Source of the DNA: Defluviitaleaceae bacterium
GTDB taxonomy: Bacteria; Bacillota; Clostridia; Lachnospirales; WQUN01
Direction of reading: 5' to 3'
DNA: 32,000 nucleotides
Assembly (NCBI GenBank): GCA_009779755.1
Contig: WRDO01000029.1
Location: 1 to 32,000, forward strand
The notes beneath the pieces were generated by a model. It did not search any database and was not told where the DNA came from. It saw only the letters and a program-made list of their open reading frames with translations. Positions 12,095 to 30,500 of this stretch are shown here, piece by piece. Both the position numbers and the translations under genes were made by a program. Each line of letters opens with the position of its first letter. Positions within the stretch are counted from its first letter, which is position 1.

Positions 12095-13489
12095 TTATAT
12101 ATGTTTTATGATTCCGTTTTCGACCAAAAACATCTCCAAAATCGTTTTTACATCGTCAAGGGACAAATCTTGGAAAAAGAAATGATTCAACCCGCACCGC
12201 ATATACGTAACCCCGTCGAAGGTAAAAAGCATACGGAACGCGCACCGTTTTTCGCCGCTTTCGGCGCCGCTCGCTTTGAATAAATGCGGGCTGCCGCCCT
12301 TACAGCAGGTACCGGGGTCGTCGAGTTTAAATACGTCGGGGAAGCGTCCGGCAAGTGCCCGCATTTTTTCGGGCGCTTTTTCAAAGGCGTGAATAAAGGA
12401 CACTTTGGTACCTATCTTTGCTTCGTGATGGTCGAAATGGCCCGCGTCCGGTTTGCGTTCGCCCTGCCGTACGAGCATAAACCGCTTCGAGCCTTTTTTA
12501 TAGAGGATGCAACCTTTTTCCATCGGTTCCTTGGGGTCGATGGCGAAGCCGTATTTTTTTGCCTCGGCATGGAGCCATTCCTGTACTTCCCTTAATTTGC
12601 TCGAAGCGTAATCCATCTCCGCGCGGAACACACGTTCATATTTCTGCCCGGCGGGGTCTTCGATATAACGATAGGAAAAACTGTGCAACGGCTTCCCCCA
12701 ACTCCAATCGGGCTTTGAAGTATCAATTTCGCTTACATAAGCGTGTAAAACCGTCATAACATACGGGTTGTCGGGATAAGTAACCCTAAATGCTTCGGAT
12801 TTTTTACCGTAACCGTCAAATAGGAACCCCATGCTTTCAAACCCGGCAATCATTAATTCCACTTTTTTATGCCTTTTTACACCCTTGTCGTTGAAAAACG
12901 CCTTTGCGTCAACCGTTACGGCGCCGTCATGATGGGAGCCGTTGAAAATTAAAGCGAACAGGATATCCACAACACGGTTGTAATAACCCTCCGTCGTTTC
13001 AAAGTCCGGATATCCCCACGCAAAGGGGTCTTTTTCAATGTCTTCATATATGGCGATTACGATTTGCTGCAATTCCCGAAACGCGGCGATAAATTCCTCA
13101 TTGGAAAGAACCGTCAGGTGCCTCGGGTCAGCTTGTACGTTATCGGGCATGGGGAGGATATCCTGCTTGCGCCGCGCCGCCGCGTCTTTCCCCGCTTGTT
13201 CGTACCCGCTGTGAAAATAGCCGTTAATAACGGAAGCCGCACTTTGTAACCCCGGTTCTTCCTTCTCAATATATTTCGCGTAATCAATCAGAAAACGCGT
13301 TGCGTTGCGGTAATGGCCGATAACCCCGCTAACGTTCCAAGTTTGCAAAAACGCGGTCAGCACATCGGCGGTTATGTCCGTTGTGATACATTTTTTCAAT
13401 TCGTTAAAAAACCAAAGCCTTTCCCCTATCAGTTTTTCGTTGCATTTCTTTTTTATTAAATAGTCATGGTACCTTTGCTTGTCCAACAT
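12095..13489 (-). CDS. Hypothetical protein, paralog family A (long form, about 465 aa)
   Basis: The ORF is open to 13555. ATG 13489 is preferred because of an AAAGGAA SD. It shares segments with ORF 16272-17567: YEDIEKDPFAWGYPDFETTEGYY vs YEDVYYHPAVYGLDPIDTEGYL, and a Cys-containing C-terminus ...RCAFRMLFTFDGVTYMRCG..F.FQDL vs ...MFNKIFYSCGGGTSFGVEYL. Confidence 0.7.
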   Translation of the reverse strand: MLDKQRYHDYLIKKKCNEKLIGERLWFFNELKKCITTDITADVLTAFLQTWNVSGVIGHYRNATRFLIDYAKYIEKEEPGLQSAASVINGYFHSGYEQAGKDAAARRKQDILPMPDNVQADPRHLTVLSNEEFIAAFRELQQIVIAIYEDIEKDPFAWGYPDFETTEGYYNRVVDILFALIFNGSHHDGAVTVDAKAFFNDKGVKRHKKVELMIAGFESMGFLFDGYGKKSEAFRVTYPDNPYVMTVLHAYVSEIDTSKPDWSWGKPLHSFSYRYIEDPAGQKYERVFRAEMDYASSKLREVQEWLHAEAKKYGFAIDPKEPMEKGCILYKKGSKRFMLVRQGERKPDAGHFDHHEAKIGTKVSFIHAFEKAPEKMRALAGRFPDVFKLDDPGTCCKGGSPHLFKASGAESGEKRCAFRMLFTFDGVTYMRCGLNHFFFQDLSLDDVKTILEMFLVENGIIKHI

Positions 13490-13544
13490 GTAACCATTCC
13501 TTTGCTCCAAAATATCCGTACGGGCAGCACCCATTGATAATCGG

Positions 13545-13555
13545 TATAATAGCAC
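13545..13555. promoter_or_regulatory. Candidate overlapping divergent -10 elements: TATAAT on the plus strand, TGcTATTAT on the minus strand
   Basis: TATAAT at 13545-13550 faces the sigma gene. Its complement region 13547-13555 reads TGCTATTAT toward ORF 12095-13489. Neither has a good -35 element. Confidence 0.25.
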
Positions 13556-13635: not shown

Positions 13636-15255
13636 GTGAACGAAATCTACGGTCTGCTCGGAAGCAAGGCGTTCCTGAAAAGTTTGTACGCCTTTGCGTA
13701 CAAACGCACCGCCAATTCCTATGAAGCGGAGGATTTATGCTCGGACATCGTTGCCGCCGTGCTTTCCGCGGCGCGCAGGAATTCCGACGTTACCCACCCC
13801 TACGCCTTCGTGTGGACAATCGCGCGGCGCGTCTACGCCGATTTTTCCGTAAAGCGTAAGCGCGGAGCAGACCATACCGCCCTTTATTCGGACGATACCG
13901 CAACCGGCTGTACCCAACCCATCGACGAATATATCGAAAACGAGGACGATAAGCTCCGCTTGCGGCGCATCCTGCGGGAATTCGCCTTCCTGTCGAAGAT
14001 ATACCGCGACGTGTGCGTCATGTACTACCTCGACGAATTGAAGGTGCCGCACATCGCAAAAAGGCTGGGCATCAGCCAAAACACCGTCAAACAGCGGCTC
14101 TGGTCGGCACGCGTTACTATTAAAAAAGGAGTGGGAAAAATGGACAACCCCGTATTAAAGCCCATCGAAATCGCCTTCATCGGCACGGGAAGCCCCGTGG
14201 GCAACGACCCGCGGGAACACGCCCGCCGCAGCTTTTCAAAGGCCCTCATCTACCTGTGCAAGGACACCGAACGCAGCGTAAAGGAACTCTCCGAAATGCT
14301 GGGCGTCCCTATGCCCTATGTGGAGGAGGAAGTATGGATACAAACCCACGGAACAAACGGTTACTACGGATTCCTGCGGAAAACGGAAAGCGGTAAGTAC
14401 ATTACCAACTTTATCCTCACGGACTATGATGATTATATGAAAGTAAGCGAAATGTACGGACGCCACGCCTACGTCATCGCGGGAAAATTCGACGCCTTCG
14501 TTAAAAAGCACGAGCAGACCATTCTGGGCCTGCCCTTCCTCAACCCGCAAACCGACACACGCCTGATAGCGTGGAAGCTCATACACGACTTGAATTGGGC
14601 ATTAATCGAACACGTGGGGAAAAGGGCGGAAGAAAAATACTTTGCACACATCACCCCCACCCAACGCGATTTTTATACCTTCGGCATCGCCATCAAGGAA
14701 GGGCAAACCTTCGACGCTCCTTTCTACGGCTGCGACGGCAACATCGCCCACGACATCGACGGATACAAGCGGGTTTTCATTTCCAACATCTACGGCAGGC
14801 GGTTGGAAAAACATTTCGGCTGCGGGGACGACATTTCCCAAGACAAACCCCTCCGCCTCACCATACGCGCCATCGGCGGGCTTCCCTTATCGTCCCTGAC
14901 CGAAGGCGAAAGGGAAACAGCGGCAAAGGCCATCGAAGCCGGATACCTTAAAAAGAAAAACGACACGTTCCACCCCCGTATCCTCGTCAGCGAAGCCGAC
15001 GTGTACTGGTGCGTCACCGACGCCTTCCTTAAGGAAATCGCTCACTTGATTGAACCCATGGCCGACGACATTCACAAAATGATAAAAAAATACCTGCCCA
15101 AACACATGGCAGGTGAATACAAACTTTTCAACCAGCAAACCTCTTTGGGTCTGCTGGACGGCATGTATGAAGAATGCATCGAACTCGGCACCATCACCGC
15201 TCCCGACAAAACCCCCTCCGCCGAAGGGGTGGTTATGATAGCAGAAAGGAAATAA
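13636..15255 (+). CDS. ECF-type sigma-70 family factor with a soluble C-terminal extension of about 370 aa
   Basis: GTG start with GGAG 8 nt upstream. Region 2 AEDLCSDIVAAVL...PYAFVWTIARRVYADF. Region 4 YRDVCVMYYLDELKVPHIAKRLGISQNTVKQRLWSARVTIKKG. The remaining roughly 370 aa have no TM segment and no recognised domain. Confidence 0.85.
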   Translation: MNEIYGLLGSKAFLKSLYAFAYKRTANSYEAEDLCSDIVAAVLSAARRNSDVTHPYAFVWTIARRVYADFSVKRKRGADHTALYSDDTATGCTQPIDEYIENEDDKLRLRRILREFAFLSKIYRDVCVMYYLDELKVPHIAKRLGISQNTVKQRLWSARVTIKKGVGKMDNPVLKPIEIAFIGTGSPVGNDPREHARRSFSKALIYLCKDTERSVKELSEMLGVPMPYVEEEVWIQTHGTNGYYGFLRKTESGKYITNFILTDYDDYMKVSEMYGRHAYVIAGKFDAFVKKHEQTILGLPFLNPQTDTRLIAWKLIHDLNWALIEHVGKRAEEKYFAHITPTQRDFYTFGIAIKEGQTFDAPFYGCDGNIAHDIDGYKRVFISNIYGRRLEKHFGCGDDISQDKPLRLTIRAIGGLPLSSLTEGERETAAKAIEAGYLKKKNDTFHPRILVSEADVYWCVTDAFLKEIAHLIEPMADDIHKMIKKYLPKHMAGEYKLFNQQTSLGLLDGMYEECIELGTITAPDKTPSAEGVVMIAERK

Positions 15256-15295: not shown

Positions 15296-16270
15296 TTATC
15301 CGCGTTGGTTTAGCGAAGCGATAAATTCTATAAAATAACTTTCAAACGGTTGTGAACGTTCTTTCTTATTTTCGCAAAGGTATTTGTAAAAATGCGGGGA
15401 TACAACGTGGGAGCCGCCGTCGTGGTTTTTAAAATATTCATAGGGTTCGATATCCGCACCCAATTTGACGGCAAGGTAAATCCCCAAGGCTTCCACGATG
15501 TTTTCCTCGATAAACCCTTCCGCTGTGCCATAACCGGAGTTGGGGGATTGGTTGTCGAACGCTTCCTTGACCCACGGATTGTCAAACAACGCCGTTATAT
15601 GATCACGCACTTGTTCGCGGTTGTACGGCGGATGAAACATTTCGTGCGTGGCATTTGACAAAATAATATCCAACGAATACCTGATGTCGGTAAGAAGGTT
15701 GTTACCGCATAGTTTGATCCCTAACGGGTCCGTAAACGCGCATAAATATATGGTGCAATCGGAATTATCAATATCACCGAAGGGCTGCAGGGCTTCATCT
15801 ATATTAAACGCCGCCAAACGATCGTTAATTTCGGCGCATTTTTCCCGTATCTTCGGCAACCAATTTTGTTCCCAATATTGTCGGAAGCCTTTTTCTTCGA
15901 GTTCGGATATAAGGGGAATAATCGTATGCTTAAACCGTGAAAATTGTTCCTCAAATTCTTCCTTATCAAAAGCGTATGGCGTTTTATTCATAGATTTTTC
16001 AATTTCATCAAAACTGCCTAACATTTCCGCAAGGTTCCTGTTGTTAAAATCATCAAGCGAAGATACGAAAAGCGTAACGGTCGGCGAAAGCATGGAATTC
16101 TCTTGTTTGTCAGCCAACTCTCGCATCTTTGTTTTTATCTCTTCGCTTAATTGGGGATACCAAGCGTCAAAGACTTCTTTATGTCTGTCCGTATAATAAC
16201 TGTCCGCGGTAAGTGTGTTGAGTAAGCAGAGCATGTCCATGTTATAACTTATACCTGTTTTTAATTTCAT
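15296..16270 (-). CDS. Hypothetical protein with an HExxH motif (putative zinc metallopeptidase-like)
   Basis: 324 aa with motif SNATHEMFHPPY. The start lies 1 nt after the stop of the upstream ORF, so they probably form an operon. The DNA is AT-richer than its flanks by eye. Confidence 0.7.
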   Translation of the reverse strand: MKLKTGISYNMDMLCLLNTLTADSYYTDRHKEVFDAWYPQLSEEIKTKMRELADKQENSMLSPTVTLFVSSLDDFNNRNLAEMLGSFDEIEKSMNKTPYAFDKEEFEEQFSRFKHTIIPLISELEEKGFRQYWEQNWLPKIREKCAEINDRLAAFNIDEALQPFGDIDNSDCTIYLCAFTDPLGIKLCGNNLLTDIRYSLDIILSNATHEMFHPPYNREQVRDHITALFDNPWVKEAFDNQSPNSGYGTAEGFIEENIVEALGIYLAVKLGADIEPYEYFKNHDGGSHVVSPHFYKYLCENKKERSQPFESYFIEFIASLNQRG

Positions 16271-16271
16271 C

Positions 16272-17567
16272 TTATCTACCCTCCGAAAAATGACCCAAAC
16301 GAATTTTTATTAAATCGATTATAAAATCAAAATTATCGCGGGTCAAATACTCCACACCAAAGCTCGTCCCGCCGCCGCACGAATAAAATATTTTATTAAA
16401 CATTACTTTGGGGTGGCCGCGCGGGGGAGGCGCATATAAACAACCACATTCGCGGCAACGCTTGAAATGCTTGATGCAAAAGGTCTTCATGCCGTCGGCG
16501 TTGGGCAGGGTGTTAACTGCGCTTTCGAAGGCTTCGCGGTTTTCCGTATTCTTTTCGGGGCCGAAGTTCGGCCGTATGTTGGGCCAATGGAAGCTCCATG
16601 TTTTATCGATACAGACGGTGACTAAGTTGTTCGCATTCCCGGCTTTGTTGATATCCAAATGCTCTTTTCTTCCGTCATATCTGACAACCGTTTTGTCCTT
16701 GGATTTCCATTCCACCCGATTTAGTTTGCATTCCCGTTTTAGATTAAAGCCCGCGAGGAACGCATCCAAACGAATGATTTCCTCTTTATTCGCATCGTCA
16801 AGGGAGTACAGCGTTTCTTCGAAGGTGCATTTATAATCCGGCGCAAGCACGCGGAAATCAAGGTAATGGCACGCCTCGCTTAACGCTTTTGTTTTGTTTG
16901 CCTTTTGGTTCAAATCAACGCCTTTTAACAACTTTAACGCTTGGAACAGGTTGGGGTATTTTGTGTTCGTTATCACACAGCCGTCGTTATCCGGGGTGAT
17001 TACGAAAGACAAGCGCTCCATAAGCTGCGTGAATTTTTCCTTGTCGTAATTGTGGTGCTTTTTCAATAGGCTTAACAGCTTCTTGTATCCGTCCTTTGAA
17101 AAACAGACGCTTTGGTCCATTAAAACGTTATTTTCCGATGAAATTTTACTGCACAAAAAACGGAAAAAATACAGGCGGCTTTCGGTCCGCTTAAAGAACT
17201 CCAATGCCGCCTTATCCTCTTTGTTTATGGCTAATATAATCGCCTTGCTCCACGTCCTGCCGGATAAATACCCCTCGGTATCGATCGGGTCCAAGCCGTA
17301 TACTGCCGGGTGGTAATACACATCTTCGTATCCGTTCAATATAAGGTTATATAAATCCACACAAGCCGCTTTTACCGCTTTGTCATCTATTTTGGAAAGG
17401 CTAATATCGAGCGGAAACAACAACCTCCCCGCGTTCCATATGGCTCGATGGATGATGAACGGAAACACCGTTTCGTTTTTTGAAAAAATCATGAAGGCTC
17501 CCTTTAAAACATCGTTTGGCACTATTTCTTCATTTGTAATTATATCACATGATTTAAATAACGCCAT
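16272..17567 (-). CDS. Hypothetical protein, paralog family A (short form), with a Cys cluster CIKHFKRCRECGC...SCGGG
   Basis: 431-aa ORF. An alternative start at ATG 17492 has a much better SD (AAGGGAG). Homology to ORF 12095-13489 is described under that feature. Confidence 0.7.
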   Translation of the reverse strand: MALFKSCDIITNEEIVPNDVLKGAFMIFSKNETVFPFIIHRAIWNAGRLLFPLDISLSKIDDKAVKAACVDLYNLILNGYEDVYYHPAVYGLDPIDTEGYLSGRTWSKAIILAINKEDKAALEFFKRTESRLYFFRFLCSKISSENNVLMDQSVCFSKDGYKKLLSLLKKHHNYDKEKFTQLMERLSFVITPDNDGCVITNTKYPNLFQALKLLKGVDLNQKANKTKALSEACHYLDFRVLAPDYKCTFEETLYSLDDANKEEIIRLDAFLAGFNLKRECKLNRVEWKSKDKTVVRYDGRKEHLDINKAGNANNLVTVCIDKTWSFHWPNIRPNFGPEKNTENREAFESAVNTLPNADGMKTFCIKHFKRCRECGCLYAPPPRGHPKVMFNKIFYSCGGGTSFGVEYLTRDNFDFIIDLIKIRLGHFSEGR

Positions 17568-17618
17568 CTTATTGCCGACGGCGTTATATTATGTTATCTT
17601 ACATATGAGGTGATGGTT

Positions 17619-17924
17619 ATGACGGTTGTTAAATCAAACGTTAACGTAAAAATTGATAAAACGGTAAAAGAACGCGCCACACAATTGCTTGCCCATATGG
17701 GCATTGACCAAACAACGGCTATCGATATGTTCTTCCGCCAAATCATCGCCGAAAAGCGGCTCCCCTTTCAACCGACGGTTGTAGCGGCAACGGACACGGC
17801 GTTAATCGCATTGCTTGAAAGCAACAAAGCAAATGAATATACATTGGATACGGATAATAACGGAACGCTCCGCATAGATAAAAACCTCCACGCCGACTTG
17901 TACGATTGGGCGGTCAACGGATAA
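17619..17924 (+). CDS. RelB/DinJ-family type II antitoxin with a C-terminal extension
   Basis: GAGG lies 8 nt upstream of ATG 17619. N-terminus NVNVKIDKTVKERATQLLAHMGIDQTTAIDMFFRQIIAEKRLPF matches the DinJ ribbon-helix-helix pattern. Confidence 0.8.
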   Translation: MTVVKSNVNVKIDKTVKERATQLLAHMGIDQTTAIDMFFRQIIAEKRLPFQPTVVAATDTALIALLESNKANEYTLDTDNNGTLRIDKNLHADLYDWAVNG

Positions 17925-18250
17925 TGTCCCCGTTTGATATATTTATCGCATATATTTCATGGGGCGACGGCGGCAAGCACCGCCCGGTATTGGTATATGC
18001 GTTGGACGACGCCTACGTTCGGTTGTACCCCATAACTTCGCGTTATGACAATAAAAGCGAAGCGGTAAGAACGAAATATTTCGCAATTAACGACCTTGCG
18101 TGTGCGGGTCTTTTCAAAACGTCCTACATTGATACGGGGACGCGTTTAAAGCAATCGGCAAACATCCTACATAATATCAAGCCGATCGGTAAACTTTCCG
18201 AGGGCGATAAACAACGGTTGATTCAATTCTTGCAAAACAATAAAAAATAA
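17924..18250 (+). CDS. PemK/MazF-like type II toxin
   Basis: TAATG overlap with the antitoxin stop. FDIFIAYISWGDGGKHRPVLVY resembles the MazF N-terminal beta-strand/RP.LV motif. 108 aa. Confidence 0.7.
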   Translation: MSPFDIFIAYISWGDGGKHRPVLVYALDDAYVRLYPITSRYDNKSEAVRTKYFAINDLACAGLFKTSYIDTGTRLKQSANILHNIKPIGKLSEGDKQRLIQFLQNNKK

Positions 18251-18423: not shown

Positions 18424-19152
18424 TTGGATAAGACAATGATTTCGTATTACGATCTGGATTGCAACGGCACGCTTAAATTCTCCGCGTTTTTGCGGATGGT
18501 GCATATCGCCGCCGACATCAACGCGACGGAGCTGGGCGTGGGCTTCGCGCAGCTTGCCCCGCTGGGCATGAGCTTCGTGCTTCAGCGCTTCAGCGCCCAT
18601 GTATATGAAGCACTCCCCGCTTACGGCGAAGAGGTGCAAATCCGTACATGGCCCGCTTCCGTTGAACGCGGCACCTTCATCCGCAAGGGTAAAATGTTGG
18701 ACAAAAAAGGCCGCAAGCGCTTGGAATGGGCAAGCCTGTGGCTTTTGTTTGATTTAAACGAACGGAAGATTTTACGGCCTTCCGCTTTACCCGTGGATTT
18801 TTCCGCTATGGGGTTGGGCGACGAAGGCGTTTCAACCACGCCGGAGAAAATCGACATACCCGCCGATTGGCCCGAATGGGGGCAACCGCATAACGCGTAC
18901 ACGCACACGGTACGCTACGCCGACGTGGACACCAACATGCATATGAATAACGCCGTCTACGGCGATTTGGTCGGTAATGCGGCCAACGGATCCGAATGGC
19001 GGGCTTTTCATATCAACTACCTCGCCGAAACGCGGTTAAATGAAAAAATCGCCGTTACCTCCCGTAAGGGAAGCAACGGTGAAATCCTGATCGTCGGTGA
19101 AAACGAAAACCGCCGTCCCTTCGCGGCGCGTGTGGTTTATCAAGCGATATAA
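18424..19152 (+). CDS. Acyl-ACP thioesterase (double hot-dog, FatA/B-like bacterial family)
   Basis: TTG start 9 nt after AAGGAGGG. Motifs YYDLD.NG.L, MSFVLQRF, IRTWP, WLLFDLNERKI and HTVRYADVDTNMHMNNAVY. Confidence 0.8.
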   Translation: MDKTMISYYDLDCNGTLKFSAFLRMVHIAADINATELGVGFAQLAPLGMSFVLQRFSAHVYEALPAYGEEVQIRTWPASVERGTFIRKGKMLDKKGRKRLEWASLWLLFDLNERKILRPSALPVDFSAMGLGDEGVSTTPEKIDIPADWPEWGQPHNAYTHTVRYADVDTNMHMNNAVYGDLVGNAANGSEWRAFHINYLAETRLNEKIAVTSRKGSNGEILIVGENENRRPFAARVVYQAI

Positions 19153-19182
19153 AACGATCCGTTTATTATTGCCATAAAACGG

Positions 19183-19211
19183 TTGAATTAAACGTAATAA
19201 TGATATATATT
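19183..19211 (+). promoter_or_regulatory. Candidate sigma-A promoter for the REC / hydrogenase-MCP operon
   Basis: TTGAAT (19183-19188), 17-nt spacer, TATATT (19206-19211). An alternative reading is TGaTATATA as an extended -10. Confidence 0.45.
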
Positions 19212-19247
19212 TCATATAAAATCTATGCATAATAAGAGAGGGAAATT

Positions 19248-19625
19248 ATGGAGAGAAAAACAATTGCCGTGGTTGACGACCAACCGTTTATTTGCGATTT
19301 GGTAAAAAAACTGTTGGGTTCCGATTATGAAGTGCATACCTTTATGAATGGTAAAAGCATGGTTGACTTCGCAGCAAACAAACAGATCGATTTGTTTTTA
19401 TTGGATTACGACATGCCCGAAATGACGGGGTATGAGGTGTTGCTTGCCTTGCGGACCGGTAAGCATAACGCAAAGACACCTGCAATATTCCTTACAGCTG
19501 AAACCAACGAACGCATGAAAAAGGAAATGCTGGGACGCGGTGCCAACGATTACCTGAACAAACCCATCAACTCAACCGAGTTGCGCCAATGCGTAAAAAA
19601 ATATTTATCATCCGTGGGGGGATAA
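19248..19625 (+). CDS. Single-domain CheY-like response regulator receiver
   Basis: 125 aa with motifs VVDDQ, LFLLDYDMPEMTG, FLTA and KP. There is no output domain. Confidence 0.9.
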   Translation: MERKTIAVVDDQPFICDLVKKLLGSDYEVHTFMNGKSMVDFAANKQIDLFLLDYDMPEMTGYEVLLALRTGKHNAKTPAIFLTAETNERMKKEMLGRGANDYLNKPINSTELRQCVKKYLSSVGG

Positions 19626-19628
19626 AAA

Positions 19629-21344
19629 ATGCGCAAACTGATTACCGAAAAGATTGAACTGTGTGTTTCTTGCAACCGTTGTATACGGGCGTGTCCCGCG
19701 GACGGCGCGAATACCGCGGCCATACAAAGCGACGGCAGTATCGTGGTTCATGTCAACTATGAACGTTGTATCTCGTGCGGATCGTGTATTAACGCTTGCC
19801 ACCATGGCGCGAGGGATTATGAAGACGATACGATTACCTTCCTGAGGGATTTGGAACGGGGCGCCTCAATTTCCTTGATTGTGGCCCCTGCCAACCGTAT
19901 CAGCGGAATGGGCGGCCGTTTACTTACTTGGCTTAAGCATAAAGGCGTGCGCAAAATTTATGACGTTTCCCTTGGGGCCGATATCTGCACATGGGCACAT
20001 ATCCGCACGATCGAAAATGAAAAACCCCAATCGGTGATTACGCAACCCTGCCCGGCCGTCGTGAACTACATCCAAATCTTCGAACACGGATTGTTGAAAT
20101 ACCTGTCACCCGTACATAGCCCCATGCTGTGCACGGCGATTTATATGAACCAATACGAAAGGATCAGTGACAGCATCGCGGCTATTTCTCCTTGCATCGC
20201 CAAGACCCATGAGTTTGACGCGACCCGATTGGTCAAATACAACGTAACACTCAAAAAGCTGTACGACTACGTGCGGGAAAACAATATCCATCTTCCTATG
20301 GAGGAGACCCCCTTCGACCATATGGAATCAGCTTACGGGCGCTTGTATTCCATGCCGGGCGGCCTGAAGGAAAACATGCAGAATTATTTCGGTAAAACGC
20401 TGAGGGTGGACCAAGCCGAAGGTCCGGATATCGTATACGACGCGCTCAAAGCGTTCGCCAACGAAAGCACGGACTGCTTACCTACGGTGTTTGACGTATT
20501 AAACTGCGCTGAGGGTTGCAATTTGGGGACAGGCATTGAACATGCGTGCTCCCGTTTTAGGGCAAACCACATCATGGACGGTAATCGGAAGGAAGTGGTG
20601 GAAACTTTTGACGCGGACAAGTATAACGAGATGCTTGAGGATTTTGACAGTCGGCTTAACCTCAGCTCTTTCCTGCGCAGGTACACGCCGATAAATATCA
20701 AGCGCTTCAACATAAACCAAAACGACATCGATAAATGCTTCGAACGTATGCATAAATATAATGAAGTGGACAAGACCTATGATTGCGGCGCGTGCGGCAG
20801 GAACACCTGCTTGGAAATGGTAATGAACATCATCCGAGGATTTGATATACCGGAAAACTGTATCAAGATGCTTCACGACATCGTAACCGAAAAGCAAAAA
20901 ACCGTATTGGATATCGCCACTTCCAACTTAGAGAGTATGGACCTGCTTACCAGCGACATCGGCGAAATCATCAACAAATCCGCTTCTATTTCCGAGCGGG
21001 TCAGCACCCTCAACGAAGCGATCTTAAAATATAAAAAAATCGCGTCGGATATCGTCTCCCTTTCGTCCCATACGAATCTGATATCGTTAAACGCCGCAAT
21101 CGAAGCGGCACGGGCGGGCGTACACGGGCGGGCGTTTGCCGTAGTGGCGGAAGAAATACGCCAACTCGCCGGCAAGACAAAAAATACGTTGTCGGAATCG
21201 GAAGATATTTCCAAGCAAGCGATCAACTCCATCAAATCCATCATGGAAATGACGGGAAGCATATCCTCGGATATCGAAAAGGCGCATATCAGTATCTCCA
21301 TCGTATACCAGAGCCTTAATAATATCCTGGAGGGTGAAAAATAA
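19629..21344 (+). CDS. Soluble [FeFe]-hydrogenase-like sensory protein fused to a methyl-accepting chemotaxis (MCP) signalling domain
   Basis: Two ferredoxin motifs, [12 protein letters not shown] and [13 protein letters not shown]-cluster-like motifs TQPCP (Cys141, nt 20049), SPCIAKTHE and [11 protein letters not shown]386-x2-C-x4-C-x16-C411 motif (nt 20784-20861). C-terminal MCP hairpin [31 protein letters not shown]. No TM segment. Confidence 0.85.
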
Positions 21345-21352
21345 CCCGTCGG

Positions 21353-24130
21353 CTAACCGTTGGCGCGTTTTAACAACCAGAGCTCCACGTTATTTAAAAG
21401 TTCCAACGCGTCGTTGATAAACGGCGCGTTTTTTTCGTACACGCCGTTATAATCACCGTTTTTCGCCATATCCTCGATGATCTGCGCCTGTTTCGCCAAC
21501 ACCTCCGCGCCGATACATGCGCTGTTCCCTTTAATCGCGTGTATGAGCGTCGCGTAGTCCGACAGGGTTTCCGGGGTCAGTCCGCGCATCTTTTCCACAA
21601 CGTCGGGTACGTTTTGCAAATAGGATTGGAACGCGTATTCCAGCATTTCCATGCTGTTATCGTACAGGGCAAGCCCCGCGGTAATATTAACGCCGGGCAA
21701 TTCCCGCCCCGGTTCCTTTTCGTTGATAAACTTGTTGAGCATAATGTCCAGCAAACGCAGGTCTATGGGTTTGCTGAGGAATCCGTCAAAACCTTCGGCC
21801 AAAAGGAGTTTATCCTGCCCCGCTATGGCGTTTGCCGTGAATGCGATGATTTTGCCGCGATATCCCAGCTCGCGAATACGCTTAGCTGCCTCTGTGCCGT
21901 TCATTATGGGCATCATTTGGTCCATAAAAATGATATCGTATGCGTTTCCGCTTTTAACATATTCGATCGCTTCATAACCGCTTATCGCCGTATCGACTTT
22001 TAATTCATACGGCTTAAGCAGCATACTCGTCACGTGCAGGTTCATGGAGGAATCGTCCACGAGTAATATGTGGCCGTTTGGCATGATCGTCCTCGGGGTT
22101 GACCTCCTTTCCCGATATAGTGAGGTAGTTTGACGGAATTGGAAGGTACGCAGCTTGTGCGCAACATCTTCGCCGATTACGGCGGTGTCGGGAACGGTAC
22201 CCTGAGGCAAACGCACGATAAACGACGTGCCCTCGCCAACCTCGCTGTCAACGTCCATCATACCGTTCATCAAACCGATCAAATGGTTGGTAATGGAGAG
22301 TCCGAGACCCGTTCCCTTTATGACGGCATCCTCATGGAAGCGCGTATACATGGTAAACAACATACCGAGCTGTTCCCTTGTCATGCCGTGCCCGGTATCC
22401 TTTATACATAAAATCAATGCCGTATCGCCCGTAATCGAGTCCCGCTCGGTAAAGACGGTGAAGGTCACCTTGCCCGAATCGGTATACTTAAACGCGTTGG
22501 AAAGCAGGTTGTTTAGTATCTGCTTGATGCGGAGCTCGTCGCCGATCAACTTCGACGGAATGTTGGCGTCTACGTCCAATTCGAAGCGGATATCCTTGCC
22601 TTCGATACGGAGCATGTTTAATTGGACGCTGTCGTGGATCATGTTTGCCGTGTCGTACGGTCCGGGGTTGATTTCCATTTTTCCTTCTTCTATTTTCGAC
22701 AAATCCAATATATCGTTAATGATATGCAAAAGCATTTCGCAGGAGATAAACATTTTATCCAGTTCATCCTGTGCGTCCGGGGGGATTTCCTTATTGCGCC
22801 TTAATATTTCGGTAATGCCCATAACGGCGTTCATCGGCGTACGGATTTCATGGCTCATATTAGCGAGGAACCTGCTTTTATGTTGGCTTGCTTCGGTTGC
22901 CTGTATTTTTTCCGCGGTAATTTCGCCGGCGTTGGAAATCATTTGGTTAAACGCTTCCGTCAGTTTATAAACGATGATCACACCCACGACCAATAACAGG
23001 GCACCCGCGATGATCACGAGTATGACCGTCAAACGCATAGCCGTGCTTCCGGCCGAATACGATTTACTTTGGATATATGATTCGATAAACGAAGCCGGCG
23101 CGATGACTTCGTCGACATCCATGATAATAACGACACTCCACGGCAATGCTTGCAGGTGTTCGTGAATAATGATACGTTCCACGCCTCCGATCGAAAGGCG
23201 CTCGATACCGGATGTCCTTTCGATTATCCTTTCGGCGATCTCCGGAGGGTAGAATTCGGTTGCGAATAAATTCTCCCATACGATGCTTCCGTTGATATCG
23301 CGCCTCGGCCTGCCGGAGAATAAGACGTCCGCGTATTCGTTGACCATAAGGACGTGGCCCGTTTCACCGATTTCCGTGGAGATAAGGACGGCGCCCAAAT
23401 TATCCAGCATAATATTCATGCCCACCACGCCGGCTATGTTCCCATTTTCGTCATGATAGGGTTTTGTGCAGGAAATGGCATACATGCCACGGGTAAGATC
23501 CACGAATACGGGCGACCAAACGATATCATCCTGTTCAACCGCGAGTATGTACCACGGACGGGTCCTGGGTTCAAAAACATGGGTTTTCATATGGGAATCC
23601 CTGTCTACGGATATGGATATACCCGTTTCCGAACCTAAATAAACCGTCCTTGCGATATCGCTGTGGGTATAGATCGGGATTAAAATATCCTCGATATTTG
23701 CCATCAACATCAGTTCATCAAGGGTATCCGCTTCCGTCACATCCGCGGGAAGCCTTAGTTGGGAAACGATAACACCTTCGTTTGCCGGATCGGGGAAGTG
23801 TATATGCCTTTTTAAGAATCCTTCGGGCGCGGATTTGATTGTGGTCGCCACTTGGGATGCCATGGACACATACCCCATCACGCTTGACAATTTCTTATCA
23901 ACCAAATTGGCTTTGTTGTGCGCCAAAAGCGAGAGGTGGTATTCAGCTTGGTTTGTGAATTGTTGGTTGCTTTCGTCCGACAGGGTTTCGCTCAAATCAT
24001 GGATGATACCCATCGCGTTGTTGATAACGATCGCCAAACCGACCCCCATAACCGAAATTACGGTCATGACAAGGATGATTACGGTTTTGGTTGTTTGCAT
24101 CCTTAATTTGTGTAAAATCGCATTGTCCAA
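21353..24130 (-). CDS. Hybrid sensor histidine kinase: TM, double-Cache-like ectodomain, TM, HisKA, HATPase, REC, Hpt
   Basis: 925 aa. H-box [19 protein letters not shown]-boxes DTGHGM / GTGLGLSIT. Receiver IIFMDQMMPIMNG. Hpt HAIKGNSACIGA. Confidence 0.93.
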   Translation of the reverse strand: MDNAILHKLRMQTTKTVIILVMTVISVMGVGLAIVINNAMGIIHDLSETLSDESNQQFTNQAEYHLSLLAHNKANLVDKKLSSVMGYVSMASQVATTIKSAPEGFLKRHIHFPDPANEGVIVSQLRLPADVTEADTLDELMLMANIEDILIPIYTHSDIARTVYLGSETGISISVDRDSHMKTHVFEPRTRPWYILAVEQDDIVWSPVFVDLTRGMYAISCTKPYHDENGNIAGVVGMNIMLDNLGAVLISTEIGETGHVLMVNEYADVLFSGRPRRDINGSIVWENLFATEFYPPEIAERIIERTSGIERLSIGGVERIIIHEHLQALPWSVVIIMDVDEVIAPASFIESYIQSKSYSAGSTAMRLTVILVIIAGALLLVVGVIIVYKLTEAFNQMISNAGEITAEKIQATEASQHKSRFLANMSHEIRTPMNAVMGITEILRRNKEIPPDAQDELDKMFISCEMLLHIINDILDLSKIEEGKMEINPGPYDTANMIHDSVQLNMLRIEGKDIRFELDVDANIPSKLIGDELRIKQILNNLLSNAFKYTDSGKVTFTVFTERDSITGDTALILCIKDTGHGMTREQLGMLFTMYTRFHEDAVIKGTGLGLSITNHLIGLMNGMMDVDSEVGEGTSFIVRLPQGTVPDTAVIGEDVAHKLRTFQFRQTTSLYRERRSTPRTIMPNGHILLVDDSSMNLHVTSMLLKPYELKVDTAISGYEAIEYVKSGNAYDIIFMDQMMPIMNGTEAAKRIRELGYRGKIIAFTANAIAGQDKLLLAEGFDGFLSKPIDLRLLDIMLNKFINEKEPGRELPGVNITAGLALYDNSMEMLEYAFQSYLQNVPDVVEKMRGLTPETLSDYATLIHAIKGNSACIGAEVLAKQAQIIEDMAKNGDYNGVYEKNAPFINDALELLNNVELWLLKRANG

Positions 24131-27180: not shown

Positions 27181-27579
27181 TTATTTTTTGGTGTCAACAT
27201 ACCGGTAATGGTCGTCCGCCGCGCCCGTGTTATAGGCATCGCTTACATGGCGGGCCGTTTTCGCTTCCTTGATGGAGTATCTCATGTTGTCGTGTATACG
27301 TTTTATATGGATTTGATTTCGTTTATCCAATTCGCCGATTTCGGTTATGCGCTTCATGATGTCGGCGAACTCGGGGGTTGCGCGGGCTTCGTCGTTTAAT
27401 TCCCCGCGCAGCTCGGTCATTTCCGAAATCAATATCTCTCGCTCTTCGACCAAATCCGCGAAGGCTTCCGCTTCATCCCGTTCGTTTTCCTTTTTCCCGG
27501 AGAAGCATAATTCATCCGTTAATCGGTATATTTCGTCGAGCAGTTCACGGGCACGTTCCAATACGGGGTAATGGTCCAT
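27181..27579 (-). CDS. Small helical flagellar-locus protein, FliT-like (tentative)
   Basis: 132 aa, acidic coiled coil. TAATG overlap with the fliD stop. Its position in the fliD/fliS/flaG cluster and its helical pattern resemble Firmicutes FliT, but there is no diagnostic motif. Confidence 0.4.
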   Translation of the reverse strand: MDHYPVLERARELLDEIYRLTDELCFSGKKENERDEAEAFADLVEEREILISEMTELRGELNDEARATPEFADIMKRITEIGELDKRNQIHIKRIHDNMRYSIKEAKTARHVSDAYNTGAADDHYRYVDTKK

Positions 27580-30500
27580 TATTGGTTACCGAACATCCAT
27601 AACGAATCCATTTGCTGTTGTGACCGCGCCATCGCAATCTCCACCCGCGAGAACATGGCGTAAAGGTTATTTTCGCGCCGTATCAGCCATTGGGTCATAT
27701 TTTCCATACGCCTGTCATATTCCGCCATTTGTCGGTTGAGGCGGTTTTGATGGGAGGCATCGGCGTTGGCGAACCCGGCTATGGCGGTGATGGAGCCGTT
27801 CGTACGGCTTATGGCATTGTCGATGATATGGTTGAGGCGTTGCGCCAAACCTTCCTGCGGGATGAGGGCGCTGCGGCCCGCAACGGTGGAGGTGATTCCG
27901 CCGGGTACGGAATGGGTGAACAGGTTCATCACGCGATCGGGGTCTTCCTCCAAGGCGCTGCGCAACCTTTCCTCGTCGATGACCAGCCTGCCGTCGCGGT
28001 AAATGCTTTCGGTGGTGATGCCGATCTGGTGCAGGAACAGCGTATCGCCGTTTTCCATCCGCACGCCCGCGGTCATCCATTGCCGCATTTGGTTGTGTAT
28101 GTTGCGCAGGGTAGGGTCGCGGTGCAACAAACCGATACGTGCCTGCTCCTCCCAGCGTTCCACGTCTCTGTCGCTCAGGGCGTTACGCTCCGCGTCCGTT
28201 AAGGGTTCGAAAAAGGCGCGTGTATTGGTGCGCGGGCGCGGGGTGGAATGCATTAGGTTGATGCCGTTGATCAAATCGTTGTACGACTGTACAAAGTCGC
28301 GTATGGCGTTGAGGGTCTGGGTGGTGTCGCGTGAGACCTCGATGATAAAACGTTCGCCCAATGCTTGGGTCCCGTTTATCGTGACGGCTACGTTGTTGTG
28401 CGTAAACGTGTTGCCTTCAAAGTCACGCAGTATCGAAGACGTTCCCCCGTTTTCATAAATACGCACCTGCGCGTTTTTGCCTTGGGCGGACGTATTTTCG
28501 TCCCCTTCCGCGTTGAAGCCCAGCGTCTTCGCCAAGAACCCGCCCGCGTCCCGCGTTATCTTGATTTGGGAGCCCATACCGACGGTCTTGGACGTCAATA
28601 CATAACGGTTGCTTGTGCCGTCGAAGGCCATATTGACGCCGGCCGAAGAGGCATTGATACGGTTCATCACGTCGCGGACGGAATCGTTGGAATAAAGGTT
28701 TATGTTAACGTTATTGATCGTCATGCCCGGTGCTTGCGTATATACCGGCTCGTGTACGGAATTATGGACGGCACTCATGTTGTTGAGGTTCGCCGTGGTT
28801 GGCGTAAACGAATCGCCCACCGTCACTTCGCCATGTTCGTCGCGTTGTACGTAATGCCAAGCCGGCGATCCCGCGGTACCCATGTTAACCACTTCGAAGC
28901 GCGTCCCGACGCTGACGAAGGACATAACGGGTTTGCCGCATTCCGTAAGGGCGGGTACCTGACGGGGTTCCGTCTTTGCGAATACCCATCCGTTTTGGTC
29001 ATACGACGGCCATTCCTCGGGGACCAGCGCCGAAGGCAGTGGGGTAGCATCCCTGCGGACGACGCCCGACGGTTCGGGGTTTGGCGGCGTTAATCCGAGG
29101 AAGGAATCGATTTTAACGTCGTGGTTTACGGCGTTGGTGGTGCCGTTGGCGAAGCCGAGTTGTTCCAGCGCGTTCCTTCTTTCCTGTGCGGTGGGGGTAC
29201 CCGGTGCGGGTGTGCCCGCGTTGAGGCGTACCGTGTCGGTGGGGTTGTTTACGTAAAGGGAGAACGCACCCTCGTTATACATGATTTCCACCCGTTGCGT
29301 AGACGAACCGCCGCCCGTAACGGGTACATTCCCGAAGCGGTCACGCAGTTGCTCGTTTATCGCGGCCGCGACGCTTGTACCGTTGATCAAATGCTCCCCG
29401 GTCAGTGTAATGGTATGCGAATTGCCGTTAAGGGTGATGTTAAAGACATAAGCCGCGTTCGCACCCCCGGTATTAAAATCGAGGGCCGCCGGGTCGCTTT
29501 TGATGGTCATCACGGCGTTGGTTGCGTTATGGTCAAACCCAAGGAGTTCCAGCGCATCCTTGCGGAGGGGTTGGTCGGCGGTCATCGGCGCGTCGGTGCC
29601 TGTGGTCAGGCGTACCGTATCGTTGGGGCTTTGCGTATTCATTTTAAACGATCCCGGTTTGTCGTCCTCACCGGGGGTATAGGTGATAAACGCTTTCGGC
29701 TGCGCCGGGGACCCGTTGGCGGCGGGTACGTAACCGAAGCGTGCCAGCAATTGCTTGTTGATTGCGTATGCTACCATTTTGCCGTCGGTTAAATCCAAGT
29801 TAACCTCTTCGCCGTTGTATGTGATCACGTCCCCGCCGCTGAGCGTGACGTTGTGCATCGCACCGTTGAACGAAACGTTGAAGTTATATTCCACGTAACC
29901 GGGGTCGGATAGGTTGAATTTTTTGATATCCGCGTCCTTGCTTGCCATTTGGTTGGCGGCGTTGACGGTATTGTCGGCGAATCCCAACAGCCCCAGAGCG
30001 TTCCTGTGTTCGGGTTTTGCGTCGGTGGCTTCCGAAAACGCGCCGTTGGTAAGACGTATGACGTCGTTGGGATTTTGCGTATGAAACGCTAATTTGCGTT
30101 CACCGGGAATTTCCCCGGCTTGGAACGTTACGTACACCGGGGCTTGCGCCGGGGTGGTGCCGGTGGCGGGTATCGGGGGGAAGATTTCCGCCAGGCGCAG
30201 GTTGATAGCCGCCATGATACCCATTTCCCTGCCGGAAGGATGGCTAAGATGCGCTTGCGTGATGGCGACGCTGTGTACGTTGCCGTCATTCAGGCTGATA
30301 TTAAAATGGTAAACCGCGGCTTTATCATCATCCCCCGGTTTCGGGAAGAAGTCGTAGTTATTGATACCGGGGTTGGGGCCGGTTATGGGGTTGAAGTGCG
30401 CGTTGAGGACACTGTCCGCGCCAAAACCGAGCAAGGTTAAGGCGTTCCTTCTTTCGGGGATATCGCCGTCGGCGAGGGTAAAATCACCGGCGGTAAGTCG

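What the first reader, a model, noticed from the sequence alone, without database searches (positions are those of the whole stretch)
19248..21344. CheY-like receiver co-transcribed with a soluble sensory-type [FeFe]-hydrogenase fused to an MCP signalling domain
Seen in sequence:
- ORF 19629-21344 has two 4Fe-4S ferredoxin motifs.
- It has the three H-cluster motifs, but L1 reads TQPCP where catalytic enzymes have TSCCP. The Cys usually assigned to proton relay is therefore Pro, while the cluster-ligating Cys is kept.
- L2 is SPCIAKTHE and L3 is NCAEGCNLG.
- An exact C-x2-C-x4-C-x16-C motif (Cys386-Cys411) follows.
- The protein ends in a short MCP hairpin domain ([28 protein letters not shown]) and has no TM segment.
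- Its ATG lies 3 nt after the stop of a stand-alone CheY-like receiver.
- No cheA or cheW is in the window. Two HK-REC-Hpt hybrid kinases lie in the window (one adjacent, one near the left end), and late flagellar genes lie about 5 kb away.

Established knowledge (from memory): putative sensory Group C / HydS-type [FeFe]-hydrogenases have an altered L1 motif and an extra four-Cys motif after the H-domain. MCP-linked members are, as far as I know, known only from genome surveys and have not been characterised.

Inference: this is a cytoplasmic H2 or redox chemoreceptor that feeds motility or a phosphorelay through the co-encoded receiver.
Basis: partly seen in the sequence, partly recalled or inferred. 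Interest (0 to 1): 0.65.

Follow-up and report, generated by a model that had tools for sequence, protein, structure and literature searches.

The report
Hydrogenase-type sensor fused to chemoreceptor hairpin
A termite-gut Clostridia bacterium encodes a soluble chemotaxis-receptor hairpin whose sensor is a slowed-down [FeFe]-hydrogenase; this type is already catalogued as a putative hydrogen sensor but has never been tested, and in this lineage it always sits beside its own small receiver protein and a hybrid sensor kinase.

Summary
ORF 19629-21344 (571 aa) has four parts:
- two ferredoxin-type 4Fe-4S motifs;
- an [FeFe]-hydrogenase H-domain that keeps all four cluster-ligating cysteines but reads TQPCP at L1, so the proton-relay Cys is Pro;
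- an exact Cx2Cx4Cx16C motif;
- a minimal MCP hairpin of about 23 heptads, with no methylation sites and no TM segment.

It is a real and widespread family, not a frameshift artefact. More than 580 loci in species-representative genomes encode relatives. Many of the best matches appear, from their isolate names, to come from termite-gut MAGs, and at least ten phyla are represented. It corresponds to HydDB [FeFe] group C2, "Chemotactic (putative)", which is catalogued but uncharacterised. In relatives the gene is often followed directly by hydG/hydE/hydF, so the family very probably carries a true H-cluster.

New here: in the window's own clade, 11 of 12 loci keep a triad of an orthologous stand-alone receiver, the Hyd-MCP, and a hybrid histidine kinase.

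Verdict: a new member of a known but untested class, most likely a cytoplasmic H2 (or H-cluster redox) chemoreceptor. Interest is moderate.

The parts
19183..19211 (+). sigma-70-like promoter candidate (TTGAAT-17-TATATT) upstream of the REC gene
   Evidence: It is the only consensus match in 18900-21700 and is weak evidence by itself.
19248..19625 (+). Stand-alone receiver (REC, 125 aa) with an intact Asp pocket (DD10-11, D53, T83, K105). It is orthologous to the RECs next to Hyd-MCP genes in the same clade.
   Evidence: PF00072 E 4e-26. It is 46-59% identical to the neighbouring RECs in 9 related loci. It is not CheY-specific.
19629..21344 (+). Hyd-MCP gene (571 aa): a soluble sensory-type [FeFe]-hydrogenase fused to an MCP signalling hairpin
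19656..19811 (+). F-domain (residues 10-61) with two CxxCxxCxxxC(P) 4Fe-4S motifs
   Evidence: Fer4_10/Fer4_7 hits. The second motif's four Cys are invariant in all 120 closest homologues. The first motif's four Cys are conserved wherever that region is present (107-111 of 120; the rest are N-terminally truncated).
19911..20528 (+). H-domain core (residues 95-300). L1 TQPCP is at 20040-20054, L2 SPCIAKTHE at 20187-20213, L3 NCAEGCNLG at 20502-20528.
   Evidence: PF02906 E 8e-24. Foldseek top hits are all [FeFe]-hydrogenases, e.g. 8a6t_A E 2e-15 over 445 columns.
20784..20861 (+). C-terminal Cx2Cx4Cx16C motif (Cys386, 389, 394, 411), the putative fourth [4Fe-4S] site. Cys411 is the residue immediately before the receptor N-arm helix.
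   Evidence: PF04060 E 1.6e-5. Invariant in 120 homologues. The helix starts at residue 412 in the AF2 model.
20862..21341 (+). MCP signalling hairpin (residues 412-571). The N-arm is 412-495, the tip is [10 protein letters not shown], and the C-arm is 497-570.
   Evidence: PF00015 E 4e-17. The profile aligns residues 415-570 to the T. maritima soluble receptor 3g6b and 390-567 to Tsr 273-460. AF2 predicts a helical hairpin. There is no methylation consensus.
21405..21430 (+). Terminator-like hairpin plus T-run, 61 nt after the Hyd-MCP stop and inside the 3' end of the convergent kinase gene
   Evidence: 11-bp stem, 6 GC pairs, TTTTTTC tail; a consensus match only.
21353..24130 (-). Convergent hybrid histidine kinase (925 aa): dCache_1, HisKA, HATPase_c, REC, Hpt
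   Evidence: It is conserved next to the 76%-identical homologue. A hybrid HK is adjacent in 11 of 12 loci of the clade.

Best explanation
The two-gene unit 19248-21344 encodes a stand-alone receiver and a cytoplasmic chemoreceptor whose sensor is a non-catalytic (sensory-type) [FeFe]-hydrogenase. It is a member of the class that HydDB lists as [FeFe] group C2, 'Chemotactic (putative)'.

Shown:
- All ligands for two N-terminal [4Fe-4S] clusters, for the H-cluster and for a C-terminal [4Fe-4S] cluster are present.
- The catalytic proton-transfer residues are replaced.
- The C-terminus is a canonical but minimal MCP hairpin whose tip is conserved.

Inferred:
- H2 reacts slowly at the H-cluster.
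- The resulting redox or conformational change is passed through the C-terminal cluster domain, whose last Cys directly caps the hairpin's N-arm helix. This shifts the four-helix bundle of a receptor dimer.
- The hairpin tip modulates CheA/CheW, and so flagellar rotation. The cell can then position itself in the steep H2 gradients of the termite gut.
- The hairpin has no methylation helices, so adaptation must work another way.
- In this lineage the co-transcribed receiver and the adjacent hybrid kinase (HK-REC-Hpt) probably form a phosphorelay. It either converges on the same output or feeds back on the receptor.
For: - Domain architecture and motifs.
- [FeFe]-hydrogenase fold over about 445 columns, with a modelled helical hairpin 412-570.
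- Proton path lost: CpI C299 becomes Pro140, E279 becomes Ala, E282 becomes Arg ([12 protein letters not shown] against GADLTIMEEA.E).
- Pro at the C299 position occurs in about 10% of sensory hydrogenases (PMC10055695).
- Full-length family: the top 120 hits share the architecture, and 584 loci were found in species-representative genomes.
- hydG is directly downstream of Hyd-MCP in seven relatives, followed by hydF (confirmed in L034, L035) or hydE (L031). The seven loci are L027, L031, L032, L034, L035, L037 and L038. TIGR03955 scored up to 880 bits in six of them; L038 was read from gene size and the Pfam tally only. Among 148 neighbours, 10 have Radical_SAM, 7 have BATS and 2 have HydF.
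- The hairpin tip matches Tsr at N381, E385, R388, G390, F396 and E402 (sequence read against established Tsr numbering).
- The window comes from a termite-gut metagenome, and flagellar genes lie 5 kb away.
- The H2-orientation idea for such proteins is in the literature (PMC4704652 citing Warnecke 2007; PMC5037454).
- The triad of REC, Hyd-MCP and hybrid HK occurs in 11 of 12 clade loci despite changed order and orientation.
- REC and Hyd-MCP are co-inherited: Mantel r 0.81, p 0.0004.
Against: - No member of the class has been tested biochemically or behaviourally.
They are absent from the 32-kb window and from about 20 kb of flanks.
- No che gene is among the commonest neighbours of 148 family-neighbour proteins.
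- For the group D enzyme TamHydS, the C-terminal cluster is not reduced by H2 (PMC13104023). The step 'redox change of the C-terminal cluster' is therefore doubtful, and a conformational signal is the more likely route.
- A hairpin of about 23 heptads is much shorter than typical Firmicute 44H receptors (from memory). How it would pack into an array is unclear.
Confidence: 0.6

Rival explanations
1. The protein is a chemoreceptor, but its physiological signal is not H2. It would report cellular redox state (the ferredoxin pool, through the F-domain clusters), or O2 or CO damaging or binding the H-cluster. That would make it an energy-taxis or aerotaxis receptor.
For: - Three accessory clusters could exchange electrons with ferredoxin.
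- The termite-gut periphery is microoxic (established knowledge), and H-clusters react with O2 and CO (PMC8163306).
- Nothing computed here separates H2 from redox input.
Against: - The complete H-cluster site is strictly conserved across more than 120 homologues in at least 10 phyla, and the family is linked to hydGEF. This argues that the [2Fe] subsite, and hence H2 chemistry, is what is selected.
- Simpler Fe-S or PAS/FAD sensors would suffice for redox sensing.
Confidence: 0.2
2. In this clade the Hyd-MCP does not work through a CheA/CheW array, or not only through one. It would be part of a dedicated phosphorelay with the co-encoded REC and the neighbouring hybrid HK. For example, REC~P could bind the methylation-less hairpin as an adaptation or output element, or the hairpin could regulate the hybrid kinase. 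The output could be something other than motility.
For: - The triad is conserved in 11 of 12 clade loci, with rearrangements.
- The RECs are orthologous and co-inherited.
- The same TQPCP-type H-domain is directly fused to hybrid kinases in at least 13 other loci, and the output type switched at least 4 times on the H-domain tree.
- The window's neighbouring kinase core is 39-54% identical to those fused kinase parts, against 34% to the other hybrid HK in the window.
- The hairpin has no methylation sites.
Against: - The hairpin tip is canonical for CheA/CheW binding.
- No CheW-like domain is present in the REC or the kinases.
- No precedent known to me exists for an MCP hairpin controlling a non-CheA kinase.
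- The association has a single evolutionary origin, so it could be inherited neighbourhood.
- 62 more distant Hyd-MCP loci have no two-component neighbours.
Confidence: 0.13
3. It is a metabolically active H2-evolving or H2-consuming hydrogenase that merely carries a coiled-coil tail.
For: Characterised sensory-type enzymes (TmHydS, TamHydS) still turn over H2 slowly (PMC10055695, PMC8163306).
Against: - C299, E279 and E282 are all replaced.
- The MCP tip is conserved at receptor-specific residues.
- No partner subunits are encoded nearby.
Confidence: 0.03
4. The fusion is an assembly or frameshift artefact, or a decaying pseudogene.
For: None found.
Against: - The 571-codon frame is uninterrupted.
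- The same architecture occurs in 120 of the 120 best homologues from many samples and assemblers.
- All sampled words of the locus are present in the source run.
- All functional residues are conserved.
Confidence: 0.01

Closest known systems
HydDB [FeFe]-hydrogenase group C2, 'Chemotactic (putative)' (Sondergaard, Pedersen & Greening 2016, PMC5037454)
   Same: A sensory-type H-domain linked to a methyl-accepting chemotaxis signalling module, proposed to sense H2 and never characterised.
   Different: - I could not run HydDB's classifier.
- In my H-domain tree, MCP-linked and HK-linked forms are interleaved rather than forming separate clusters.
- The conserved REC plus hybrid-HK neighbourhood of this clade is not, to my knowledge, part of the class description.
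TamHydS, group D (M2e) putative sensory [FeFe]-hydrogenase of Thermoanaerobacter mathranii (PMC8163306, PMC13104023)
   Same: - Two N-terminal [4Fe-4S] motifs and a C-terminal Cx2Cx4Cx16C.
- No PAS domain and no C299 or proton-pathway residues.
- The same pocket substitutions: M353 to Ser (Ser187 here) and M497 to Leu (Leu291 here).
   Different: - TamHydS ends shortly after the C-terminal cluster and has no MCP hairpin.
- No sequence was available here for direct comparison or phylogeny.
TmHydS, group C (M2f) sensory [FeFe]-hydrogenase of Thermotoga maritima (PMC10055695)
   Same: F-domain, H-domain and C-terminal 4-Cys cluster, with the proton-relay Cys replaced and low-activity 'sensor' chemistry expected.
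   Different: - TmHydS carries a PAS domain after the cluster, and has Ala at position 299, Gly at 353 and Ser at 497.
- This protein has no PAS, and has Pro, Ser and Leu at those positions.
Short soluble chemoreceptors, e.g. T. maritima Tm14 (PDB 3g67/3g6b), and the 24H heptad class discussed for V. cholerae and P. aeruginosa McpA-like receptors (PMC7534058)
   Same: - Membrane-free and of minimal hairpin length.
- The family profile aligns residues 415-570 to nearly the whole of Tm14.
   Different: - The sensor is a four-cluster metalloenzyme module joined directly to the N-arm.
- The C-arm is about 1.5 heptads shorter than the N-arm.
- The formal heptad class was not assigned, because the Alexander-Zhulin models were not available.
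Hyd-HK fusions (HydDB C1-like, histidine-kinase-linked sensory hydrogenases) found here in L054, L066-L068, L072-L076, L080-L085
   Same: The same H-domain signature (ITQPCP, GADIC.W, FDVLNCxEGCN.GT, DCGACG...NC), with 45-52% identity over residues 1-420.
   Different: The output is HisKA-HATPase-REC(-Hpt) instead of an MCP hairpin.

Membership tests
[FeFe]-hydrogenase H-domain (PF02906) | Four Cys ligating the H-cluster (CpI C300, C355, C499, C503) | tested here: met
   Cys141, 189, 293 and 297 align to those positions. They are invariant in 120 homologues.
[FeFe]-hydrogenase H-domain (PF02906) | Pfam model above the gathering score, and a hydrogenase fold | tested here: met
   85 bits against a cutoff of 22.1. 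Foldseek's top 50 hits are all [FeFe]-hydrogenases, probability 1.00.
Catalytic (group A) [FeFe]-hydrogenase | TSCCP with the proton-relay Cys299, plus E279 and E282 of the proton pathway | tested here: not met
   TQPCP puts Pro140 at position 299. [12 protein letters not shown] puts Ala and Arg at the E279 and E282 positions. The TIGR02512 and TIGR04105 scores are far below their cutoffs.
Sensory [FeFe]-hydrogenases (groups C/D; M2f/M2e) | Two N-terminal [4Fe-4S] motifs plus a C-terminal Cx2Cx4Cx16C motif | tested here: met
   The motif is as defined in PMC8163306.
Sensory [FeFe]-hydrogenases, group C sensu M2f (TmHydS type) | PAS domain after the C-terminal cluster | tested here: not met
   There is no PAS hit at E<=0.01. 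A continuous helix starts at residue 412, directly after Cys411.
HydDB [FeFe] group C2 (chemotactic, putative) | Sensory H-domain linked to an MCP signalling module | tested here: met
   A single ORF holds PF02906 and PF00015, and the same holds in 120 of 120 best homologues.
HydDB [FeFe] group C2 (chemotactic, putative) | Assignment by HydDB's k-NN classifier or placement among HydDB reference sequences | not testable with these tools
   No HydDB reference set or classifier is available here. The local tree contains only MCP- and HK-linked relatives.
Methyl-accepting chemotaxis proteins (PF00015) | Conserved signalling hairpin tip (CheA/CheW and trimer contact residues) | tested here: met
   63 bits against a cutoff of 34.6. 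The sequence [25 protein letters not shown] matches Tsr N381, E385, R388, G390, F396 and E402. Tsr E391 is Val here. One search gives the alignment.
Methyl-accepting chemotaxis proteins (PF00015) | Methylation (adaptation) helices with the [ASTG][ASTG]xx[EQ][EQ]xx[ASTG][ASTG] consensus | tested here: not met
   No strict or loose match was found. The only EE pair is in the tip (E508-E509). The C-arm ends at about the position of Tsr residue 464.
Methyl-accepting chemotaxis proteins (PF00015) | CheA and CheW encoded in the same genome | not testable with these tools
None were found in the window or in about 20 kb of flanks.
H-cluster-containing enzymes | HydE/HydF/HydG maturases available | tested here: inconclusive
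At family level, hydG (with hydE or hydF) lies directly downstream of Hyd-MCP in seven relatives.
CheY | Single-domain receiver with specific similarity to CheY | tested here: not met
   The Asp pocket is intact, but the best matches are AdeR, PleD and DrrD-type receivers. CheY and Spo0F score no better.

The most novel reading that the evidence does not exclude
In this termite-gut Lachnospirales/Defluviitaleaceae clade the hydrogenase-MCP is one leg of a fixed three-gene device: a dedicated receiver, the Hyd-MCP, and a hybrid HK(-Hpt). Phosphorylation of the small receiver, by the neighbouring hybrid kinase and/or by CheA, would replace methylation as the adaptation or output step of a methylation-less cytoplasmic H2 receptor. 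Alternatively, the MCP hairpin would gate a non-CheA phosphorelay. Either way this would be a chemoreceptor-to-two-component wiring that has not been described.
Probability: 0.13. Interest if true: 0.7.

Novelty: new member of a known kind. Interest (0 to 1): 0.4.

Why it matters
H2 is the central free intermediate of lignocellulose digestion in termite guts, and it forms steep radial gradients there. A direct cytoplasmic H2 chemoreceptor would explain how motile fermenters, acetogens and sulfate reducers position themselves. No H2-taxis receptor has been demonstrated in any organism. This locus adds nothing categorically new to the catalogued class, but it gives three usable leads:
- Family members are operonic with hydG/E/F, which supports a real H-cluster.
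- The same H-domain swaps between MCP and hybrid-kinase outputs.
- One clade keeps a dedicated receiver and hybrid kinase beside the receptor, which gives concrete partners to test.

Tried and rejected
- **Contig walking instead.** I walked the 159,665-bp source contig with the look-up of encoding contigs. About 9.8 kb to the left holds an inovirus-like block. About 14.4 kb to the right holds the FliD N-terminus, MutS2, PadR and an ABC transporter. Neither side has che or hyd maturase genes, so I stopped.
- **Earlier notes on this genome.** They hold nothing on che or hyd genes.
- **RNA evidence for co-transcription.** No RNA run holds the locus.
- **Placement against classified hydrogenase groups.** Reference sequences for TmHydS, TamHydS and HydDB were not obtainable. 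The PDB holds no match closer than group A enzymes such as CbA5H. Only a local tree of MCP- and HK-linked relatives could be built.
- **Formal heptad-class assignment.** No class models were available, so only helix lengths from the AF2 model and the Tsr/Tm14 alignment were used.
- **The idea that che genes flank family members.** Rejected: none appear among the top neighbour families.
- **The 'CheY-like' reading of the REC.** Rejected as too specific.
- **Frameshift artefact.** Rejected.
Full report
**Observation**

- REC is at 19248-19625 (125 aa) and the Hyd-MCP gene at 19629-21344 (571 aa). The ATG lies three bases after the REC stop.
- Independent gene calls on the source contig give the same products.
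- Pfam finds a 4Fe-4S dicluster domain (10-61), Fe_hyd_lg_C (95-300, E 8e-24), the small 'FeS' family PF04060 over the four-Cys motif (384-412), and MCPsignal (456-565, E 4e-17). The upstream ORF is a Response_reg domain (E 4e-26).
- HMMER alignments to solved hydrogenases fix the residue equivalences. T138-Q-P-C-P142 lies on TSCCP, so Pro140 replaces the proton-relay Cys299 and Cys141 is the ligand Cys300. S187-P-C189 lies on M353-P-C355, with K192 and E195 kept. D289-V-L291-N-C293-x-x-G-C297 lies on E-x-M497-x-C499-x-x-G-C503.
- The segment [12 protein letters not shown] replaces GADLTIMEEA.E, so E279 and E282 of the proton pathway are also gone.
- Cys386/389/394/411 form an exact Cx2Cx4Cx16C, the motif described for sensory M2e/M2f enzymes (PMC8163306).
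- There is no hydrophobic segment (maximum Kyte-Doolittle 19-mer mean 0.94), no methylation consensus and no C-terminal pentapeptide.

**Is it real, and how common is it?**

- A search of about 5.8 billion proteins returned 4,735 hits at E<=1e-5. The best 120 (51-76% identity, 93-100% coverage) all have the same architecture.
- In those 120, the four H-cluster cysteines, the four C-terminal cysteines and the second ferredoxin motif's four cysteines are invariant. The first ferredoxin motif's cysteines are conserved wherever that region is present (107-111 of 120). Q139-P140, K192 and E195 are also invariant, as are two further family-specific cysteines, C120 and C168.
- A scan of one genome per GTDB species found 584 loci encoding relatives. 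The best 80 come from MAGs of Bacillota, Fibrobacterota, Cloacimonadota, Thermodesulfobacteriota, Synergistota, Deferribacterota, Spirochaetota, Bdellovibrionota, Pseudomonadota and Acidobacteriota.
- From my recognition of the isolate names, many of these belong to termite-gut MAG projects. Others come from other animal guts.
- The window itself is held completely by a run labelled 'termite gut metagenome'. It lies at 33,011-65,010 of a 159,665-bp contig.
- The closest named relatives are 'Defluviitaleaceae bacterium' MAG proteins.
- A frameshift artefact is excluded.

**Structure**

- AlphaFold2 with a 32-sequence alignment gives mean pLDDT 79.9 and pTM 0.71.
- Foldseek's best PDB matches are all [FeFe]-hydrogenases, for example the T. 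kivui HydA subunit (8a6t_A, E 2e-15, 445 aligned columns), CbA5H, TmHydA, DdH and CpI.
- After Cys411 the model has one helix, 412-495. It turns at A496-G497 and returns as helix 497-570. That is about 12 plus 10.5 heptads.
- The family profile aligns 415-570 to nearly the whole T. maritima soluble receptor Tm14 (3g6b) and 390-567 to Tsr 273-460.
- The module is therefore the minimal signalling hairpin, 24H-like or shorter, without the methylation helices.
- The tip ([25 protein letters not shown]) keeps the Tsr positions N381, E385, R388, G390, F396 and E402. This is consistent with ordinary CheA/CheW and trimer contacts. It is an inference from established Tsr genetics and was not tested here.

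**Family-level context**

- I called genes in 85 related loci and classified the neighbours. Among 148 otherwise unclassified proteins within two genes of a Hyd-MCP gene, the commonest Pfam families were Radical_SAM (10), BATS (7) and HydF domains (2).
- NCBIfam confirmed HydG (up to 880 bits), HydF and HydE directly downstream, on the same strand, in six Fibrobacterota and Deferribacteraceae loci. A seventh locus (L038) is inferred from gene size and the Pfam tally.
- This is good contextual evidence that the family receives a genuine H-cluster.
- No che genes appeared among the frequent neighbours. That is uninformative, because receptor genes are usually scattered.
- The same H-domain signature (I[TS]QPCP, GADIC.W, FDVLNCxEGCN.GT, DCGACG...NC) is also found fused to HisKA-HATPase-REC(-Hpt) hybrid kinases of 952-1579 aa.
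- On an H-domain tree, MCP- and HK-linked forms interleave, and at least four output switches are required.

**What is specific to this locus**

- The window's protein falls in a well-supported clade (SH-aLRT 98) of Lachnospirales-type sequences.
- In that clade, 11 of 12 loci carry a stand-alone REC immediately upstream, either co-directional or divergent, and a hybrid histidine kinase immediately adjacent. These are the window, L001, L003, L004, L006-L010, L089 and L090. The exception is a Cloacimonadota locus.
- The kinase is usually REC-(PAS)-HisKA-HATPase-REC(-Hpt) downstream. In the window and its 76% relative it is a convergent dCache-HK-REC-Hpt.
- The flanks otherwise differ.
- The RECs are orthologous (46-59% identity to the window's). 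Their pairwise identities track those of the Hyd-MCPs (Mantel r 0.81, p 0.0004).
- None of 62 more distant Hyd-MCP loci has such neighbours.
- The window's kinase core is 39-54% identical to the kinase parts of Hyd-HK fusions, against 34% to the other hybrid kinase in the window. This comparison is suggestive only.
- The association has a single origin, so it may be inherited neighbourhood. Its survival through rearrangements and kinase-type changes nonetheless suggests a functional link.
- The REC is not specifically CheY-like. AdeR, PleD, OmpR-family receivers, Spo0F and CheY all match at similar E-values.
- A promoter-like site (19183-19211) and a terminator-like hairpin (21405-21430) bracket the REC/Hyd-MCP pair. 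Both are weak consensus matches.

**Comparison with what is known**

- Sensory hydrogenases in termite-gut Fibrobacteres were already proposed to orient cells in H2 gradients (PMC4704652, citing Warnecke 2007).
- Pro at the C299 position occurs in about 10% of sensory sequences (PMC10055695).
- The pocket substitutions here (M353 to Ser, M497 to Leu) and the lack of a PAS domain match what is reported for the group D enzyme TamHydS rather than for TmHydS (Gly/Ser, PAS present) (PMC8163306).
- For TamHydS the C-terminal cluster is not reduced by H2 (PMC13104023). I therefore treat a conformational signal as more likely than a redox signal through that cluster. The last ligand, Cys411, abuts the receptor helix.
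- Earlier notes of this scan on other genomes reached the same classification. They are not independent evidence.

**Limits**

The two genome-level refutation tests, hydEFG and cheA/cheW, remain open.
- About 20 kb of additional contig showed neither.
- No RNA data hold the locus.

**Verdict**

This is a well-preserved new member of a catalogued but experimentally untouched class, most likely a cytoplasmic H2-responsive chemoreceptor. It adds a clade-specific receiver and hybrid-kinase partnership as a testable lead.

Noticed in passing
L086:257-8649 (source contig just left of the window, record ~66-74.5 kb): A block of about 13 small same-strand genes including a Zot-family ATPase (PF05707). 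It looks like an integrated filamentous (inovirus-like) prophage next to the PAS hybrid kinase.
   Followed up: no
window 27579-32000 (continues to a 1597-aa product on the contig): A giant FliD filament-cap gene, about three times the usual length. It was already treated by another report of this scan. The gene call on the contig confirms 1597 aa.
   Followed up: partly
L027, L031, L032, L034, L035, L037, L038 (downstream of the Hyd-MCP match): hydG, followed by hydF or hydE, lies directly after the Hyd-MCP gene on the same strand in Fibrobacterota and Deferribacteraceae MAGs. A sensor would be operonic with the H-cluster maturases. L038 is inferred from gene size and the Pfam tally only.
   Followed up: yes
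L057:2653-12684 and L070:54-10059: A Hyd-MCP gene is followed by two small genes (about 105 and 173 aa). Next comes a 429-aa PAS-less HydS-like gene (L1 ISSACPS, L2 ISPCPAK; group D-like), then two catalytic-type hydrogenase genes (ITSCSPG).
   Followed up: no
L044:436-3866: Tandem Hyd-MCP paralogues in a Defluviitaleaceae MAG. The first is divergent (ILNPCPS, GGDIFLW, FNVMNC..SIG) and sits on a long branch.
   Followed up: no
L054, L066-L068, L072-L076, L080-L085: The same TQPCP-type H-domain is fused to hybrid histidine kinases of 952-1579 aa. MCP and HK outputs interleave on the H-domain tree, with at least 4 switches.
   Followed up: partly
window 19986-19988 (Cys120) and 20130-20132 (Cys168): Two extra cysteines in the H-domain (GADIC, SPMLC) are invariant in all 120 closest homologues and are absent from catalytic enzymes. 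Their role is unknown. An alternative proton path or a redox switch are untested possibilities.
   Followed up: no
window 17610-18250: A RelB-family antitoxin gene overlaps a 114-aa ORF with no family hit. This is probably a toxin-antitoxin pair just upstream of the thioesterase/REC/Hyd-MCP region.
   Followed up: no
window 13636-15255: A sigma-70 region 2/4 protein carries a C-terminal extension of about 370 aa with no family hit. Several ORFs around it also have no Pfam match (12095-13555, 15296-17567).
   Followed up: no
window 21344-21353: The stops of the Hyd-MCP gene and of the convergent hybrid kinase are only 8 nt apart. Any terminator for either gene must therefore lie inside the other's coding sequence.
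   Followed up: partly
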